Positions 5,559 to 41,001 of a DNA stretch of 41,286 nt are shown piece after piece (positions within the stretch are counted from its first letter, which is position 1; each line of letters opens with the position of its first letter). The notes under the pieces are model-generated. The model did not search any database. It saw only the letters and a list, made by a program, of their open reading frames with translations, and was not told where the DNA came from. Location of the stretch: positions 1 through 41,286 of the IMG/VR virus record IMGVR_UViG_2851933302_000002; one strand, written 5' to 3'. The stretch is from a virus (taxonomy: Duplodnaviria > Heunggongvirae > Uroviricota > Caudoviricetes). Position numbers and translations under genes: made by a program.

Positions 5559-5740
5559 TGAGAAATCCTCTGTTTCCCCTTAACGCCGGGGTAGCGGAAC
5601 AAAAACCTGCTGCATAGTTATTAAAGTTGAACCCTGCCGTCATGTTCTTACGCCTCGGGCTGGCTACTTAACCCCTGACCACTGCCTGGTAACTCGAAGT
5701 ATTGCCCTGCATTCTGTGGGGCGGGGTGGGTGGCAGGTAT

Positions 5741-5790
5741 ATAATGTACTTTGCGTTCATTGTTGTAAAGTACTTTTAGTACATTTTGTG
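5741..5790 (-). promoter_or_regulatory. pL-like early-left promoter with overlapping operator repeats
   Basis: On the minus strand: -35 TTTACA (plus coordinates 5764-5769), 17-nt spacer, -10 CATTAT (5741-5746). Overlaps operator motif ATGTACT-N4-GTTC (5744-5758) and a GTAC-rich near-palindrome (5768-5788). Confidence 0.45.
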
Positions 5791-5859
5791 TGTAAAAAAA
5801 TGAGATGGGATAAAGTGAAGCACAAACCCGGAGGAAGGCGCTACCGGATTTATGCTGGT

Positions 5860-6279
5860 TTAAGAGGCTTTTTGTTTTTTCTTTCGTGCTAACTCTTCGT
5901 AAATTGCATTGTACTTCTGTTTTTTCTCTTCAAGAGTTTTTAAAAGTTCATCTGTCTCACTGTCAGGGAGCTCGTCCAGAAGGTCAATGATGATTTTTTG
6001 TCTTGGATTTAACTCCTGATAGAAACGTACCTGTCCACTTTCTTCTGTATCCTCTCCCAAAAGATAGGTTGGTGTTGTTCCTATTAGTGTTGCTAATTCC
6101 CTTAATTTCTCCCGGCGAGGAATTGTTTCGCCATTAAACCATTTGCTAACCGCTTTTGGTGTTAATTTCATTCGACGGGCAATTTCTGCCTGCCTTCCAT
6201 GTTGTTCATAACCAGCGTTTTCACAGGCTAGCGCAAGCCTACTGGCGAACTCTTTACGCGCTTTATCTTCATGAACCAT
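5860..6279 (-). CDS. Prophage repressor, XRE-family HTH (RacR/CI-like, no peptidase domain)
   Basis: 139-aa ORF with an N-terminal HTH (QAEIARRMKLTPKAVSKWFNGE). Divergent from the cro-like gene, with operator repeats in the intergenic region. Confidence 0.85.
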   Translation of the reverse strand: MVHEDKARKEFASRLALACENAGYEQHGRQAEIARRMKLTPKAVSKWFNGETIPRREKLRELATLIGTTPTYLLGEDTEESGQVRFYQELNPRQKIIIDLLDELPDSETDELLKTLEEKKQKYNAIYEELARKKKQKAS

Positions 6280-6299
6280 AAGTTCAATGATATTCGCTC

Positions 6300-6342
6300 T
6301 TGAATGTACTGTCAGTTCTGTTATAGCATGTACTCAAAGTTC
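6300..6342. promoter_or_regulatory. Divergent immunity-region promoter/operator (pR/pRM-like)
   Basis: Two direct copies of ATGTACT-N4-GTTC (6304-6318 and 6328-6342) lie between the repressor and cro-like starts. A candidate rightward promoter (-35 TTGAAT 6300-6305, -10 TATAGC 6322-6327) overlaps them. Confidence 0.45.
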
Positions 6343-6358
6343 ACATTGTGAGGGTGAT

Positions 6359-6613
6359 ATGAACCAGAAAACACTTGAAGATGTAATCAAAACTGTTCGC
6401 GTTGCTGTTGTGGCCGACGTTTGTGGTGTCAGCCAAAGAGCAATCTATAAATGGATGGATAACGGAAAATTGCCTCGCACAGAATATACCGGCGAAACAA
6501 ATTACGCTGAAAAAATCGCTCTTGCATCAAACGGATTATTTTCTGCCGATGCAATTTTAACTATTGGCAGGAATAAAACTACTACGAAAAAGCTGATGGG
6601 AGTTGATTCATGA
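6359..6613 (+). CDS. Cro-like / YdaS-like HTH regulator
   Basis: 84-aa ORF from the ATG at 6359 with SD GAGGGTG. HTH segment DVCGVSQRAIYKW. Translationally coupled to the next gene through an ATGA overlap. Confidence 0.7.
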   Translation: MNQKTLEDVIKTVRVAVVADVCGVSQRAIYKWMDNGKLPRTEYTGETNYAEKIALASNGLFSADAILTIGRNKTTTKKLMGVDS

Positions 6614-7035
6614 AAATCAAGCATGAACACATCCGCATGGCGATGAATGCCTGGGCGCATCCGGACGGCGAAAAAGTACCGGCTGCGAAAATTACCAAAG
6701 CGTATTTCGAGCTGGGAATGACGTTCCCGGAACTGTATGACGACAGCCATCCGGAAGCCCTGGCCCGTAATACCCAGAAAATTTTCCGTTGGCTGGATAA
6801 AGACACCCCTGATGCTGTTGAAAAAATGCAGGCTCTGTTACCGGCGATCGAAAAGGCGATGCCGCCTTTGCTGGTGGCCCGTATGCGCAGCCACAGTTCT
6901 GAATATTACCGTGAGATCGTCGAACGGAGGGATCGGCTGGTGAAGGATGTCGATGATTTTGTTGCGTCAGCGGTTGTTTTGTATGACCAGATGAATCGCG
7001 GCGGCCCGGCAGGGAATGCTGTGGTGATGCACTAA
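6610..7035 (+). CDS. YdaT-like protein (Rac-type early region)
   Basis: 141-aa ORF beginning MKIKHEHI. Assigned from the position after the cro/YdaS-like gene and recalled similarity to the YdaT family. Confidence 0.55.
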   Translation: MKIKHEHIRMAMNAWAHPDGEKVPAAKITKAYFELGMTFPELYDDSHPEALARNTQKIFRWLDKDTPDAVEKMQALLPAIEKAMPPLLVARMRSHSSEYYREIVERRDRLVKDVDDFVASAVVLYDQMNRGGPAGNAVVMH

Positions 7036-11083: not shown

Positions 11084-11239
11084 ATGAAGCAGCAAAAGGC
11101 GATGTTAATCGCCCTGATCGTCATCTGTTTAACCGTCATAGTGACGGCACTGGTAACGAGGAAAGACCTCTGCGAGGTACGAATCCGAACCGGCCAGACG
11201 GAGGTCGCTGTCTTCACAGCTTACGAACCTGAGGAGTAA
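11084..11239 (+). CDS. hok: Hok/Gef-family type I toxin (HokD/RelF-like)
   Basis: 51-aa peptide MKQQKAMLIALIVICLTVIVTALVTRKDLCEVRIRTGQTEVAVFTAYEPEE, matching my recollection of HokD. Structured leader upstream (10860-11080) would hold mok/sok elements. Terminator follows at 11310-11337. Confidence 0.9.
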   Translation: MKQQKAMLIALIVICLTVIVTALVTRKDLCEVRIRTGQTEVAVFTAYEPEE

Positions 11240-20278: not shown

Positions 20279-20416
20279 GTGTTTGATTTTAGCAAACTGA
20301 TTCGGGAGATTCGAGTGATGGCTGAAAAATTATCCACCTGGAAGTTCATTCTTATCTGGCTGGTGTTTGTGATTATGGCCTCCGGTTATTTCATCGGTCA
20401 GATACGCTGGTGGTGA
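20279..20416 (+). CDS. Small single-pass membrane peptide between R and Rz
   Basis: 45-aa ORF from GTG at 20279 with SD AAGGAG at 5-nt spacing; an in-frame ATG at 20318 gives a 32-aa version. Hydrophobic core [20 protein letters not shown]. Stop lies 1 nt before the Rz start. Not in the ORF track (under 60 aa). Confidence 0.35.
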
Positions 20417-20417
20417 A

Positions 20418-20885
20418 ATGAACCGCGTACTGTGCGTGGTCATCATTGCCCTGCTGGTGGCCTGTGGTGCGCTTAGTCTGGGGCTGAATCATTACCGTGA
20501 TAACGCCATTACCTACAAAGCCCAGCGCGACAAAAATGTCAGAGAACTGAAGCTGGCGAACGCGGCAATTACTGACATGCAGATGCGTCAGCGTGATGTT
20601 GCTGCGCTCGATGCAAAATACACGAAGGAGTTAGCTGATGCGAAAGCTGAAAATGAAACTCTTCGCGCTGACGTTGCCGCTGGTCGTAAGCGCCTGCGTA
20701 TCAACGCCACCTGTCCAGGTCCCGTGCGTGAAGCCACCGGCACCGCCCGCGTGGATAATGCAACCGGCCCCCAACTGGCAGACACCGTTACACGGGATTA
20801 TTTCACCCTCAGAGAGCGGCTGATGACGATGCAGAAGCAACTGGAAGGGGCGCAGGAATATATCCGTACTCAGTGCCTGAAATAA
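20418..20885 (+). CDS. Rz: Spanin, inner membrane subunit (Rz)
   Basis: 155-aa ORF with an N-terminal transmembrane segment and a coiled-coil periplasmic domain. Sequence closely resembles lambda Rz. Confidence 0.85.
20638..20823 (+). CDS. Rz1: Spanin, outer membrane lipoprotein subunit (Rz1), embedded in Rz +1 frame
   Basis: 61-aa ORF inside Rz in another frame. Lipobox-like LVVSAC followed by a proline-rich mature part. Confidence 0.85.
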
Positions 20886-21235
20886 GTTTTGTTGATGCGC
20901 CGTATCGTCGCTGTATTCCCTCATTAACAGAGACCGCAGCCCGACAGGGAGACTCCTCTGCGCGAGTGTGCGGGGATAATCAAAAACGATACACACCGGG
21001 GTTTACCGCGTTAACGGAGCGCGGCGTTGTCCCCTCATAGTCGCCTGTCCGGTGCGATGGTGGAAGAAACCGGATGTTTATCACTATTAATTGATGACAC
21101 AGAAATGGATTCATTGAATTTCAGCACGTTTTTGTATTCGTGTTATTGAACATCTGTTTATTTTACTTTTAACATATTGATAATAAAAAGAGCTGTAAAT
21201 CTTTAGATGAGTCGATTTTGTCCGGGGAAGTTCAA

Positions 21236-21376
21236 ATGGATTTTATGCTGACGGTTTCTGGTGTGGTTATCCTGTCCATTGCTTATACTGCAGATAAATA
21301 TGGCTGCCATTTGTTATCACGTATTGGCGCTTATTGTTCGTTGATGCTGATTTTCTCGTCGCTTTTTTTTGAGTAA
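21236..21376 (+). CDS. Small hydrophobic peptide in AT-rich Rz-cos spacer
   Basis: 46-aa ORF with SD GGGGAAG. Hydrophobic sequence (VSGVVILSIAY...SLMLIFSSLFF). Not in the ORF track. Confidence 0.25.
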   Translation: MDFMLTVSGVVILSIAYTADKYGCHLLSRIGAYCSLMLIFSSLFFE

Positions 21377-21508
21377 GTTATATTAATTATAACAAATAAT
21401 TTTCTGTGTTATTTTTTCAGGCTATCCCGTCAGAGGGGAAGCCTGTACTGCCGGGGAGCGAATGGAAAACTGATGTGTCCGGTAACTGCGTGTTCTGTGA
21501 ACACCATG

Positions 21509-21694
21509 TTACTTAATTATGTAATTCATACCCGAACTCTCTGTTGACAGCCTTCTTCTGCAGGCTTCAATAACCCACGCTGAAAAGTTTCCTGAACCTT
21601 TCAGATCAAGAGCGATGTTAATTTGTTCAATCATCTGGTTTGGAAATCGGATGTTGCGGGTTGTTGTTCTGCGGGTTCTGTTCTTTGATGACAT
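21509..21694 (-). CDS. Ribbon-helix-helix (Arc/MetJ/CopG-like) DNA-binding protein
   Basis: 61-aa ORF with SD GGGGA. Basic N-terminus, beta-strand RNIRFPNQ, helices MIEQINIALD and NFSAWVIEACRRRL. Located in the AT-rich region between Rz and cos, where lambda carries bor. Confidence 0.55.
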   Translation of the reverse strand: MSSKNRTRRTTTRNIRFPNQMIEQINIALDLKGSGNFSAWVIEACRRRLSTESSGMNYIIK

Positions 21695-21879
21695 AATGTT
21701 TCCCCATATTCAGTGTTGCTGATTTGTATTATCTGAAGTTGCTTTTACGTTAATTTGATGCAGATCAATTAATACGATACCTGCGTCATAATTGATTATT
21801 TCTCGTGGTTTGATGGCGTACACACATGTTGTGATAAACCTTATATAGATGATAATCATTATCATTTTCGTGGGTCCTT

Positions 21880-22060
21880 TCCGGCGATCCGACCGGTTAC
21901 GGGGCGGCGACCTCGCGGATTTTCACTATTTATGAAAATTTTCCGGGATCCATGTCCGGTTTCTCTGCAAGTTAACCATATGAAAAATATAAAAACATGC
22001 TTTCCATGAACCGGACATGCGCAAAAAATAGACACTAAAACCGGACATGACCGGTTTTGT
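21880..22060 (+). other. cos: Cohesive end site (cosQ-cosN-cosB), lambda type
   Basis: GGGCGGCGACCT at 21902-21913 with flanks (CCGACCGGTTACG upstream; CGCGGATTTTCACTATTTATGAAAATTTTCCGG downstream) near-identical to my recollection of the lambda cos junction. Downstream are three copies of a 9-bp motif: CATGTCCGG (21951-21959, inverted) and CCGGACATG (22011-22019, 22041-22049). Confidence 0.8.
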
Positions 22061-22097
22061 TGTGATTGTGAGGTGAGAGTTTTTTGCGAGGTGAGGA

Positions 22098-22607
22098 GTG
22101 GCTACGCAGACTGAAGTTGCCAGGCATTTAAGTCTGACCGATCGCCAGCTTCGCAGATTGCAGAAATTGCCGGGTGCCCCGATATCGAATAAGCGAGGGC
22201 AACTGGATCTGGATGCCTGGCGCGATTTTTACATATCGTATCTGAGAAGAAGTAAAAACGATGTGCCTGATGGCGATAGCGAAGACGACTATGAGGAGAA
22301 ATTGCTTATTGCCAGATGGGAACTGACAGCAGAACAGGCTGTTACACAGCAGTTAAAAAATGAGGTGTCAAAAGGAAAACTTATTGACACCGGGTTCTGT
22401 ATTTTTGCCCTCAGCAAGCTGGCAATGGCGTTATCCAGTACGCTTGATTCCATCCCTTTATCCATGCAGCGACAGTTTCCTGATTTAACACCGCGCCATC
22501 TTGACCATCTGAAAACCCTTATTGCGAAGGGGGCAAATCAGTGTGCGCGGGCGGGGGATAAATTACCGGATTTACTCGATGAATATATCAGAGCAACAAC
22601 TGAATAA
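22098..22607 (+). CDS. Nu1: Terminase small subunit (Nu1-like)
   Basis: 169-aa ORF directly downstream of cos. N-terminal HTH (VARHLSLTDRQLRRLQ). C-terminal region resembles the Nu1 family. Overlaps the terminase large subunit start. Confidence 0.8.
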   Translation: MATQTEVARHLSLTDRQLRRLQKLPGAPISNKRGQLDLDAWRDFYISYLRRSKNDVPDGDSEDDYEEKLLIARWELTAEQAVTQQLKNEVSKGKLIDTGFCIFALSKLAMALSSTLDSIPLSMQRQFPDLTPRHLDHLKTLIAKGANQCARAGDKLPDLLDEYIRATTE

Positions 22608-39823: not shown

Positions 39824-39952
39824 GCTGTATATGCAACGGAGGAAGAAACCTCGTTGCTGGAAGCCTGGAAAAAGTATCGGGTGTTGCTGAACCGTGTTGA
39901 TACATCAACTGCCCCTGATATTGAGTGGCCTGTGAACCCTGTCAGGGAGTAA
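39824..39952 (+). pseudogene. Tail fibre assembly protein (Tfa) 3' remnant
   Basis: Frame without a start codon encodes …[38 protein letters not shown], the conserved Tfa C-terminus. Duplicated as the 3' end of the intact-looking gene at 40732..41001. Confidence 0.6.
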
Positions 39953-40006
39953 TCATTGGGATTATGCCGCAGCACGTCTTAAGCAAGAACGTGCTGCGGT
40001 TGGATG

Positions 40007-40675
40007 CTATTTTTTCCCTGAAGCGGAAAACATTACTACAGTACCTTGAACCTTGGTTTTAACATTCTCGAAATGCTCTGAGAGTATATGTGTTAAGCCT
40101 TCTTCGGAATCTTTTGTGTTTGAAAAGATGCCTTTCTGATTGTAAATGCGCATCAGTTTTTGACCGAAGCTATTGTGCACAACGCCGTCACCAAGAATTG
40201 TGGCTCCGTATAGAGTTCCATCGTCAGTTAAGGCCTGCGCCGCATTGCGTATTACACAGCTTTTTGTAGATATATTTCCAGGCAGGCAGTGAAGAAGGTA
40301 AAACATGGAAATGGAATCAAATTGACCATGTAACGCCGCGGGATAAGGATCAAAAACATCATGGCTAATTTTATGTTTAATTTTTGATTCCCCAGCCCTT
40401 GTCGATGCCGCGTTCAGGCTAGCTTCGTTCAAATCCATTAAAGATATCAGACTACTCTCAGGTACGTGAGTAAGGTAAAACCCAGTTCCAACACCAATAT
40501 CCAGATGGTTGTTACCTAAATGTTCCAGAAAGTGTGGAAGAAGGTGTTCCTTTGTAGGACATCCCCATGCAAGCCGATTTGATACTCCCAAAACCCACCA
40601 GTCATAAAGCTTTAGGGTAAGTGGTGTGTAAATTTTAGCCCCATCATCTGTGTTTTTTTTCATTAATTTCACCAT
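40007..40675 (-). CDS. Class I SAM-dependent methyltransferase (small-molecule/RNA type), cargo gene
   Basis: 222-aa ORF on the opposite strand to the tail genes. Motif I HLDIGVGTGFY with a Rossmann-fold pattern. Flanked by direct repeats of the tfa 3' end. Confidence 0.7.
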   Translation of the reverse strand: MVKLMKKNTDDGAKIYTPLTLKLYDWWVLGVSNRLAWGCPTKEHLLPHFLEHLGNNHLDIGVGTGFYLTHVPESSLISLMDLNEASLNAASTRAGESKIKHKISHDVFDPYPAALHGQFDSISMFYLLHCLPGNISTKSCVIRNAAQALTDDGTLYGATILGDGVVHNSFGQKLMRIYNQKGIFSNTKDSEEGLTHILSEHFENVKTKVQGTVVMFSASGKK

Positions 40676-40731
40676 GTTATAGTTTTATTTGTGAATTAAA
40701 TCAATTATGGCGATGAATTACAAGGGGTTAA

Positions 40732-41001
40732 ATGCTGCCGCAGCATAGCGATATTGAAATAGCCTGGTATGCTTCGATACAGCAGGAGCCGAATGGCTGG
40801 AAGACCGTCACCACACAGTTCTACATCCAGGAATTCAGTGAGTATATTGCGCCACTGCAGGATGCTGTAGATCTGGAAATCGCAACGGAGGAAGAAAGAT
40901 CGTTGCTGGAGGCATGGAATAAATATCGGGTATTGTTGAATCGTGTTGATACATCAACTGCACCTGATATTGAGTGGCCTGCAAATCCTGTCAGGGAGTA
41001 A
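40732..41001 (+). CDS. Tail fibre assembly protein (Tfa-like), short form
   Basis: 89-aa ORF whose C-terminus ([32 protein letters not shown]) is the conserved Tfa C-terminal motif. May be N-terminally truncated relative to canonical Tfa of about 190 aa. Confidence 0.55.

What the first reader, a model, noticed from the sequence alone, without database searches (positions are those of the whole stretch)
20886..21880. AT-rich island between Rz/Rz1 and cos encoding a ribbon-helix-helix protein and a small hydrophobic peptide
Lambda carries bor in this position. Here there is a markedly AT-rich kilobase with a minus-strand 61-aa RHH protein with good SD and a plus-strand 46-aa hydrophobic peptide (21236-21376). 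Base composition and gene content suggest horizontally acquired cargo; an RHH regulator next to a small membrane peptide is reminiscent of toxin/regulator or exclusion modules.
Basis: partly seen in the sequence, partly recalled or inferred. Interest (0 to 1): 0.55.

Follow-up and report, generated by a model that had tools for sequence, protein, structure and literature searches.

The report
Ordinary lambdoid Rz–cos accessory region
The AT-rich stretch between the lysis genes and cos is the usual mix-and-match accessory region of lambda-like prophages, holding a YlcI/YnfO-family small protein that lambda itself also encodes, an unrelated small hydrophobic ORF, and an unannotated conserved element that may be a structured RNA.

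Summary
Window 21076-21880 is the most AT-rich 805 bp of the window (GC 0.37). It carries a minus-strand 61-aa ORF and a plus-strand 46-aa hydrophobic ORF. The first 190 bp of the finding are GC-rich (0.57), though.

The 61-aa protein belongs to the YlcI/YnfO family (DUF3950). It is not acquired cargo: lambda has an unannotated 64-aa homologue next to cos, as do DLP12 (ylcI) and Qin (ynfO). The gene and its upstream DNA up to cosQ are about 88% identical to lambda.

The 46-aa ORF sits in a separate 430-bp module found in 733 of 5426 complete E. coli genomes. It occurs without the DUF3950 gene, and that gene usually occurs without it. The two genes are convergent and match no toxin or defence family. 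They are not a toxin/regulator pair.

A ribbon-helix-helix fold is plausible but unproven. Coding status of the 46-aa ORF is only moderately supported.

The most interesting item is a discrete ~180-bp conserved element (20895-21075). It is unannotated, absent from Rfam and present in about 4100 of 5426 E. coli genomes. Its substitution pattern fits a plus-strand RNA structure.

Overall this is a known, ordinary region of unknown function.

The parts
20418..20885 (+). Rz i-spanin gene (with the embedded Rz1 frame). It is the left boundary of the interval and context only.
   Evidence: Pfam Phage_lysis 4.2e-51. PGAP calls it 'lysis protein' in identical DNA.
20895..21075 (+). Element A. A discrete GC-rich (0.57) conserved non-coding element of about 180 bp. 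It is a candidate plus-strand structured RNA with a 5' long hairpin (~20902-20992), a central hairpin closed by GGG/CCC (~20998-21040) and a 3' hairpin (~21046-21072).
   Evidence: Conservation boundaries are sharp across 88 unique variants. It is found in 4144 of 5426 E. coli genomes at 11129 places, nearly always unannotated. It always follows Rz or Rz-bor/iss, whatever lies to its right. Of stem cells, 98.6% pair, against 35-61% with slid partners, and covariation exceeds all 500 shuffles. Only 89.4% pair if it is read as the minus strand. Of 11 common transition polymorphisms in stems, 10 keep the pair by G-U wobble and the eleventh is compensated, where 54% would be expected. There is no Rfam match. 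The single-sequence folding z-score is not significant.
21076..21508 (.). Module B. An AT-rich (GC 0.365) insertable cargo module that carries the small ORF.
   Evidence: It is present as a whole unit in 733 of 5426 E. coli genomes. All copies are at least 95% identical except one at 77%. Its homology boundaries with other prophages fall at about 21075 and about 21484-21560.
21156..21190 (+). A 35-nt block, invariant across four copies, upstream of the small ORF (GTTTATTTTACTTTTAACATATTGATAATAAAAAG). It is a possible promoter with a GATAAT -10.
   Evidence: It is identical in the 77%-identical SHP24 copy, where the surrounding DNA is 78% identical. A consensus scan found only a minus-strand promoter-like site here (21199->21171). 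Promoter function is inferred.
21236..21376 (+). 46-aa hydrophobic ORF (MDFMLTVSGVVILSIAYTADKYGCHLLSRIGAYCSLMLIFSSLFFE). It is a possible small membrane protein with two hydrophobic segments.
   Evidence: PGAP CDS WP_000347013.1 'hypothetical protein'. Homologues are found only in E. coli, 13 clusters. The ORF stays open with no internal indel at 17% nucleotide divergence. dN/dS is 0.31 against L004 and 0.74 against L016. The C-terminus changes with the length of a T-run, and some copies are frameshifted. No family hits.
21482..21512 (.). Imperfect inverted repeat (GTAACTGCGTGTTC/GAACACCATGTTAC) that overlaps the stop codon of the DUF3950 gene. The two convergent genes meet here.
   Evidence: the repeat finder I4 and a terminator-like scan hit at 21490-21504. 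A function as a terminator is inferred. In K-12 the analogous ybcW-ylcI pair is reported as a convergent 'excludon' with overlapping transcripts (PMC12288877).
21509..21694 (-). YlcI/YnfO-family (DUF3950) gene, 61 aa. It is a probable ribbon-helix-helix DNA-binding protein.
   Evidence: Pfam PF13132 67.5 bits against a cutoff of 25. NCBIfam NF041551 35.2 bits against a cutoff of 30. phrog_949 9e-32. PGAP 'YlcI/YnfO family protein' WP_001329960.1. dN/dS 0.16. The AF2 monomer model shows a strand at 11-16 and helices at 19-32 and 39-55, with pLDDT 62.
21695..21871 (.). Conserved non-coding region upstream of the DUF3950 gene, with three copies of an ATCAATTA half-site (21750-21759 inverted, 21764-21772 and 21789-21796 inverted). 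These are candidate promoter and operator sites.
   Evidence: It is nearly identical in lambda, DLP12 and SHP24. The overlapping 51-aa minus ORF (21710-21865, phrog_9395) is not conserved in frame, because the window has a 7-nt indel relative to lambda. Operator function is inferred.
21872..21913 (+). Lambda-type cosQ heptamer GGGTCCT (21872-21878) and the cosN cohesive-end sequence GGGCGGCGACCT (21902-21913). This is the right boundary.
   Evidence: Read directly. It aligns to the right end of lambda and to DLP12. The identities of cosQ and cosN come from established lambda knowledge.

Best explanation
The interval is the normal mosaic accessory slot that lambdoid phages keep between the lysis cassette and cos. 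It consists of independently assorting modules.

(1) Element A is a ~180-bp conserved non-coding element that always follows Rz, or Rz-bor/iss. It is most likely a structured part of the plus-strand (late) transcript.

(2) Module B is an AT-rich 430-bp cargo module. It carries a 46-aa hydrophobic ORF that may be a small membrane protein.

(3) The YlcI/YnfO (DUF3950) gene lies on the strand opposite to late transcription, with about 180 bp of conserved upstream DNA that runs into cosQ. Lambda, DLP12 and Qin carry the same gene in the same place.

The most likely mechanism for the DUF3950 protein is as follows. It is a small dimeric ribbon-helix-helix-type DNA-binding protein. It is made from its own promoter in the lysogen, because its gene is antisense to the late operon, as bor is. 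It probably binds the ATCAATTA repeats upstream of its own gene and autoregulates. Its other targets are unknown. It is not dedicated to the neighbouring small ORF.

Shown here: the anatomy, the family membership, the distribution and the independence of the modules. Inferred: the fold, DNA binding, expression in lysogens and autoregulation.
For: Family and coding status of the 61-aa ORF.

Same gene next to cos elsewhere:
- lambda has an unannotated 64-aa ORF at 48109-48303 on the minus strand;
- DLP12 has ylcI;
- Qin has ynfO;
- nucleotide identity from inside the gene to cosN is 87-88%.

Modules assort independently. Among 120 viral contigs that carry element A, the layouts include Rz-A alone, Rz-A-RHH-HNH, Rz-A-DUF1398-RHH-Nu1, Rz-A-Nu1, Rz-A-pep46-RHH-Nu1 and Rz-bor-A-RHH-Nu1.

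The peptide module is in 733 genomes, against 4343 with some match to the interval. It is present without the DUF3950 gene in L017/L018.

Lambda's own Rz-cos region is just as AT-rich, at GC 0.32-0.43.

ylcI is transcribed in K-12, convergently with ybcW (PMC12288877).

Secondary-structure order is strand-helix-helix. The alignment to Arc is in the RHH register.

The inverted repeats upstream are conserved.
Against: - No experiment or paper found gives a function for YlcI/YnfO.
- The upstream repeats are almost invariant among the copies compared, so they cannot be tested by covariation. Their conservation could instead reflect packaging functions near cosQ.
- In complete E. coli genomes the peptide module is almost always next to a YlcI/YnfO gene, so a functional link cannot be excluded from distribution alone.
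Confidence: 0.6

Rival explanations
1. The 46-aa peptide is a toxic or exclusion membrane peptide, and the adjacent RHH protein is its dedicated repressor or antitoxin. The two form one horizontally acquired module.
For: The peptide is small and hydrophobic. RHH proteins are common antitoxins and regulators. There is a weak HicB-like PHROG hit at E=0.012. In complete E. coli genomes the peptide module nearly always has a YlcI/YnfO gene to its right.
Against: - The DUF3950 gene is found without the peptide in lambda, DLP12, Qin and thousands of genomes.
- The peptide is found without it in L017/L018.
- The genes are convergent, with separate upstream regions.
- The RHH gene's upstream region is shared with lambda, which lacks the peptide.
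- There are no toxin or defence family hits.
- Frameshifted peptide variants persist.
Confidence: 0.07
2. The 46-aa ORF is not translated. Module B is an AT-rich non-coding spacer, for example an H-NS-bound or regulatory region, or one that encodes an RNA. The open frame is incidental.
For: - Homologues exist only within E. coli.
- The ORF is barely more conserved than its upstream flank: 82.6% against 78.3%.
- Differences are spread 8/6/10 over the three codon positions.
- dN/dS is 0.74 against L016.
- The C-terminus shifts with a T-run, and truncated variants exist.
- The most conserved piece of the module is a 35-nt non-coding block.
Against: - The frame stays open with no internal indel at 17% divergence, while the downstream flank collects 10-15 gap columns.
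- The other two forward frames contain stop codons.
- Replacements are conservative (V/I, S/A, F/L, M/I), and the Shine-Dalgarno sequence and ATG are kept.
- dN/dS is about 0.3 in the two deep comparisons.
Confidence: 0.3
3. The YlcI/YnfO protein works in DNA packaging. It would bind the conserved cos-proximal DNA near cosQ to modulate termination of packaging or cos cleavage, rather than regulate transcription.
For: The gene and its upstream DNA abut cosQ/cosN and are co-conserved with lambda-type cos. The gene usually precedes the terminase genes.
Against: - The same gene sits upstream of a different packaging module (HNH endonuclease plus another small terminase) with unrelated upstream DNA.
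- It is on the strand opposite to late transcription.
- Many element-A phages with Nu1 lack it.
- Distant homologues are chromosomal and lie next to TonB-dependent receptor and copper genes.
Confidence: 0.08
4. Element A is conserved for a DNA-level reason, not as RNA. It could be a recombination 'boundary' sequence between mosaic modules, or the upstream regulatory region of bor/iss.
For: It lies exactly at a mosaic joint, with variable DNA on both sides. In lambda, DLP12 and iss plasmids it lies upstream of bor/iss. The single-sequence folding energy is no better than shuffles.
Against: The substitution pattern is specific to one strand and to the proposed structure. The element is retained where bor is absent, as in this window.
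Confidence: 0.35

Closest known systems
YlcI (DLP12) / YnfO (Qin) of E. coli K-12, and the unannotated 64-aa ORF of lambda at 48109-48303 (DUF3950, PF13132; NCBIfam NF041551)
   Same: Same family by curated thresholds. About 90% identical over the first 52 residues. Same position (last gene before cos/nohD/nohA), same orientation (opposite to the late genes) and, for lambda and DLP12, the same upstream DNA.
   Different: The C-terminal tail differs after about residue 50 (STESSGMNYIIK against TSEKRAYTSIKSDEE). The left-hand neighbour differs: the 46-aa ORF module here, ybcW/lambdap79 in lambda and DLP12, and ydfO in Qin.
Arc/Mnt/CopG-type ribbon-helix-helix repressors (Pfam Arc PF03869 and relatives)
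   Same: Size. An N-terminal basic arm. Predicted strand-helix-helix order. An NIRFP motif aligned to Arc's NLRWP. A glycine-containing loop before the second helix.
   Different: No significant sequence or profile match (hhalign probability 10%). No structural match from the monomer model. The dimer, the DNA binding and the operators are all untested.
Lambda bor / plasmid iss and other late-operon 'morons' (lom, DUF1398 ybcV/ydfO, cspI, gnsB in Qin)
   Same: They occupy the same Rz-to-cos slot, are AT-rich, and several lie on the strand opposite to late transcription and are expressed in lysogens (PMC7067206).
   Different: No bor/iss gene is present in this window. The cargo here is a 46-aa ORF of unknown function.
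Type I toxin-antitoxin small hydrophobic toxins (Hok, Ldr, Ibs, ZorO)
   Same: A small hydrophobic peptide encoded in a prophage.
   Different: No family match. No Rfam antisense RNA. Two short hydrophobic segments rather than one transmembrane helix with a charged tail. Frameshifted copies are tolerated.

Membership tests
YlcI/YnfO family (Pfam DUF3950 PF13132; NCBIfam NF041551) | Score above the curated family thresholds | tested here: met
   Pfam 67.5 bits against a gathering score of 25, E 9e-19. NCBIfam 35.2 bits against a cutoff of 30.
YlcI/YnfO family (Pfam DUF3950 PF13132; NCBIfam NF041551) | Conserved core IRF...NFSAWV.EAC in a protein of about 60-80 aa | tested here: met
   Columns I15, R16, F17, I25, F37, S38, V41, A44 and C45 are invariant, and N36, A39 and W40 nearly so, across 17 members down to 34% identity.
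YlcI/YnfO family (Pfam DUF3950 PF13132; NCBIfam NF041551) | Typical prophage context: last gene before cos/terminase, opposite to the late genes | tested here: met
   Not universal: distant members are chromosomal, next to TonB-dependent receptor and cop genes.
Ribbon-helix-helix (Arc/MetJ/CopG) superfamily | Beta-strand, helix, helix order in about 45 residues | tested here: met
   The AF2 model has a strand at 11-16 and helices at 19-32 and 39-55, but mean pLDDT is only 62.
Ribbon-helix-helix (Arc/MetJ/CopG) superfamily | Detectable sequence, profile or structure similarity to a known RHH protein | tested here: inconclusive
Ribbon-helix-helix (Arc/MetJ/CopG) superfamily | Intertwined homodimer whose paired strands form the DNA-reading ribbon | not testable with these tools
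Ribbon-helix-helix (Arc/MetJ/CopG) superfamily | Binding to direct or inverted DNA repeats (operators) | not testable with these tools
   Candidate ATCAATTA half-sites lie at 21750-21796. They are invariant among the copies compared, so there is no comparative test.
Toxin-antitoxin or toxin/regulator module | The two genes are inherited together as a unit | tested here: not met
   The RHH gene occurs without the peptide in lambda, DLP12, Qin and most genomes. The peptide occurs without the RHH gene in L017/L018.
Toxin-antitoxin or toxin/regulator module | Co-transcribed operon (type II), or an antisense RNA overlapping the toxin mRNA (type I) | tested here: not met
   The genes are convergent and 132 nt apart. 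No Rfam family matched at E<=1. An uncatalogued antisense RNA cannot be excluded.
Toxin-antitoxin or toxin/regulator module | The toxin resembles a known toxin family | tested here: not met
   No hits in Pfam, PHROGs, NCBIfam or PADLOC.
Bor/Iss lipoprotein locus | A bor/iss gene on the minus strand directly after Rz | tested here: not met
   There is no such ORF in 20886-21900 and none is annotated in identical DNA. Only the element that lies upstream of bor in lambda (element A) is present.
Any Rfam RNA family (for element A and module B) | Covariance-model match | tested here: not met
   Only two chance-level matches (E 0.25 and 0.66) in 20300-22500, neither in element A.

The most novel reading that the evidence does not exclude
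Element A (20895-21075) is an unrecognised, very widespread cis-acting structured RNA of lambdoid phages. It would be a three-hairpin domain in the late transcript directly after the lysis cassette. It is present in lambda itself at 46868-46981, in about three quarters of complete E. coli genomes, and on iss-bearing plasmids. Possible roles are an RNA processing or stability element, or the source of a 3'-UTR-derived small RNA. It is not in Rfam and was not among the Hfq-bound sRNAs reported for the Sakai prophage Sp6.
Probability: 0.4. Interest if true: 0.55.

Novelty: already known. Interest (0 to 1): 0.3.

Why it matters
As stated, the finding matters little. Both ORFs are already annotated in hundreds of identical prophages. 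The 61-aa protein belongs to a named family of unknown function, which lambda itself encodes. The proposed toxin/regulator pairing is not supported.

Two points have some value:
- The lambda reference record (NC_001416) lacks the YlcI/YnfO homologue next to cos. One of the best-studied genomes therefore still carries an unannotated, conserved, probably DNA-binding gene of unknown role.
- The GC-rich 180 bp at the left edge is a very common, sharply bounded, unannotated element whose substitution pattern points to a plus-strand RNA structure. If real, it would be a new phage RNA element that is easy to test in lambda.

Tried and rejected
- PDB sequence and profile searches with the protein, the family profile and two distant members found nothing relevant.
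- Literature on YnfO, YlcI and DUF3950 gave only gene lists and one transcript-overlap mention.
- I checked whether the interval holds a known prophage sRNA. There was no Rfam hit. The EcOnc/AgvB/AsxR sRNAs lie at the Q-S moron site. HnrS is in Sp9, Sp10 and Sp12. The two Hfq peaks in Sakai Sp6 lie outside this interval.
- The 51-aa minus ORF at 21710-21865 matches phrog_9395 at 3e-39. I rejected it as a gene because a 7-nt indel relative to lambda breaks its frame and lambda's version starts elsewhere. The match reflects conserved cos-proximal DNA.
- The 55-aa plus ORF at 20873-21040 matches the 'Rz-like spanin' phrog_6954 at 1e-16. I rejected it because indels in other copies of element A break the frame.
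- In one genome a DUF1398 ORF reads through into element A. This is a non-conserved tail, not homology.
- Single-sequence folding of element A on either strand is not better than shuffles. Only the comparative signal supports a structure.
- A tblastn search with the peptide in phage genomes found only two identical copies.
Full report
**1. What is there**

The interval runs from the stop codon of Rz to a lambda-type cos. Rz is at 20418-20885 (Pfam Phage_lysis 4e-51). The cosQ heptamer GGGTCCT is at 21872-21878 and the cohesive-end sequence GGGCGGCGACCT at 21902-21913. Both align to the right end of lambda. A Nu1-type small terminase gene follows at 22098.

The AT-richness is real. 21076-21880 has GC 0.368 against 0.514 for the window, the lowest of 1620 sliding 805-bp windows. 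The first 190 bp of the finding are GC-rich (0.568) and are a different object.

The same 1017 bp occur at 100% identity in many E. coli chromosomes. There PGAP annotates exactly two genes: a 46-aa 'hypothetical protein' (= 21236-21376, plus strand) and a 'YlcI/YnfO family protein' (= 21509-21694, minus strand).

**2. The 61-aa protein**

It is a clear member of DUF3950, the YlcI/YnfO family:
- Pfam 67.5 bits against a cutoff of 25;
- NCBIfam NF041551 35.2 bits against a cutoff of 30;
- phrog_949 at 9e-32.

It is under purifying selection. Against an 83%-identical prophage copy, 24 of 37 differences are at third codon positions and dN/dS is 0.16.

It is not cargo peculiar to this phage. Lambda's reference sequence has an unannotated 64-aa homologue at 48109-48303 on the minus strand. 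DLP12 has ylcI and Qin has ynfO in the same place. From inside the gene to cosN the DNA is 87-88% identical to lambda. Lambda's own Rz-cos region is equally AT-rich, at GC 0.32-0.43.

The same gene also precedes a different packaging module (HNH endonuclease plus another small terminase). In that arrangement the homology stops right at its start codon.

Across 1.84 billion representative proteins the family is small: 106 hits, about a dozen truly distinct. The core IRF...NFSAWV.EAC is invariant.

**3. Is it ribbon-helix-helix?**

It is plausible but not shown.

In favour:
- The AF2 monomer model has a strand at 11-16 and helices at 19-32 and 39-55, though pLDDT is only 62.
- Profile-profile alignment to an Arc-family alignment places NIRFP on Arc's NLRWP with helix A following. 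The pairwise P is 0.003 and the probability 10%.
- There is a weak HicB-like PHROG hit at E=0.012.

Against, or uninformative:
- PDB sequence searches found nothing.
- Dimer modelling was not possible.

I put the RHH fold at roughly 0.7.

**4. The 46-aa ORF**

It has a Shine-Dalgarno sequence (GGGGAA, 6 nt upstream) and two hydrophobic segments separated by DKYGCHLLSR. Homologues exist only in E. coli, in 13 clusters, and it matches no family.

The surrounding 430-bp AT-rich module occurs as a unit in 733 of 5426 complete genomes. All copies are at least 95% identical except one at 77%.

Evidence for coding:
- In the 77% copy the frame is still open, with no internal indel and conservative replacements. 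dN/dS is 0.31.
- The other two forward frames have stop codons.
- The downstream flank collects 10-15 gap columns.

Evidence against coding:
- Differences are spread 8/6/10 over the three codon positions.
- The ORF is hardly more conserved than its upstream flank (82.6% against 78.3%).
- dN/dS is 0.74 against a third variant.
- The C-terminus shifts with the length of a T-run, and frameshifted variants persist.

I rate it about 0.6-0.7 likely to be a real small protein.

**5. Are the two a pair?**

No.
- The DUF3950 gene is found without the peptide in lambda, DLP12 and Qin. Some match to the interval is found in 4343 genomes, the peptide module in only 733.
- The peptide module is found without the DUF3950 gene in L017/L018. 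There homology ends at window 21484 and other plus-strand genes and TerL follow.
- The two genes are convergent.
- The DUF3950 gene's conserved upstream region is shared with phages that lack the peptide.
- Among 120 viral contigs the slot shows many combinations of bor, DUF1398, the peptide, the DUF3950 gene and two packaging types.

In K-12 the analogous convergent pair ybcW-ylcI is reported to have overlapping transcripts (PMC12288877). That shows ylcI is transcribed in a cryptic prophage.

**6. Most likely mechanism**

The DUF3950 gene is antisense to the late operon, as are bor and other lysogen-expressed morons (general principle in PMC7067206). It has its own conserved upstream region with three ATCAATTA half-sites at 21750-21796.

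I infer a small dimeric DNA-binding protein made in the lysogen that autoregulates through these repeats, with other targets unknown. None of these steps is shown.

Distant homologues (37-43% identity) lie directly after TonB-dependent receptor genes and beside copC/copD in enterobacterial chromosomes. The family is therefore not tied to packaging.

**7. Element A, the unexpected part**

The GC-rich 20895-21075 is a sharply bounded conserved element. It is found in 4144 of 5426 E. coli genomes at 11129 places, almost never annotated. It is also on iss plasmids. It always follows Rz or Rz-bor/iss, whatever lies to its right. Its 5' half is in lambda at 46868-46981, between bor and lambdap78, and in DLP12 between borD and ybcV, at 79% identity.

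I tested a three-hairpin structure on 78 unique copies. It combines the RNAalifold consensus with a central hairpin I added by eye.
- 98.6% of stem cells pair, against 35-61% with slid partners.
- The covariation score exceeds all 500 shuffles.
- Read as the opposite strand, only 89.4% pair.
- Of 12 common polymorphic pairs, 10 are compatible on the plus strand and 1 on the minus strand.
- Of 11 common transition polymorphisms in stems, 10 are wobble-compatible and the eleventh is compensated (C-G to U-A). About 54% would be expected, giving a binomial p of about 0.01.
- Lambda's copy adds one C-G to G-C swap and two mismatches.

Caveats:
- The copies are related, so these counts are not independent events.
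- Part of the structure was derived from these same sequences.
- Single-sequence folding is not better than shuffles.

The element has no Rfam match. No Hfq peak is reported in this interval of Sakai Sp6. The exact 26-nt core was found only in Escherichia among species-representative genomes; the other hits look like contamination.

I treat it as a candidate cis-acting RNA of the late transcript, at a probability of about 0.4.

**8. Verdict**

The interpretation as acquired cargo and a toxin/regulator pair is not supported. The region is an ordinary, already annotated lambdoid accessory slot whose genes have unknown function. The finding itself is of low interest. Element A and the missing lambda annotation add a little.

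Noticed in passing
window 20895-21075 (also lambda NC_001416 46868-46981; L014 2510-2624): A sharply bounded ~180-bp GC-rich conserved element right after the lysis cassette. It is present in about 4100 of 5426 E. coli genomes and on iss plasmids, is unannotated, and is absent from Rfam. Its strand-specific, pair-preserving substitution pattern suggests a plus-strand RNA structure.
   Followed up: yes
L015 2710-2904 (lambda NC_001416 48109-48303, minus strand): The lambda RefSeq record does not annotate the 64-aa YlcI/YnfO (DUF3950) homologue that lies directly before cos. Some other lambda records call it 'hypothetical protein'.
   Followed up: partly
L008/L009 4001-4225; L010-L013 (e.g. L010 4001-4192): Distant chromosomal DUF3950 homologues (37-43% identity) sit immediately downstream of a TonB-dependent receptor gene and next to copC/copD/yebY, in two different arrangements. 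This hints at a role in metal-uptake regulation. The family's single cysteine (EAC) is invariant.
   Followed up: no
window 21951-22057: Four copies of an 11-12-nt repeat (CATGTCCGGTTT / AACCGGACATG, in both orientations) lie between cosN and the Nu1 start. They are probably the cosB R sites for this phage's small terminase, and their sequence differs from lambda's R sites.
   Followed up: no
window 21710-21865 (-) and 20873-21040 (+): Two ORFs match PHROG families strongly (phrog_9395 at 3e-39; phrog_6954 'Rz-like spanin' at 1e-16) but are not conserved in frame. These PHROG families appear to be built from ORF calls over conserved non-coding DNA.
   Followed up: partly
window ~5600-6700 and ~39900-40900: Two other stretches with GC below 0.42 in 805-bp windows. 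They may be further accessory or moron islands in this prophage.
   Followed up: no
L017 and L018 (222-362, then 440-2373): A variant of the 46-aa ORF module (89% protein identity) is followed by two small plus-strand genes and a TerL of another type, with no DUF3950 gene. The module has therefore moved between different packaging backgrounds.
   Followed up: partly
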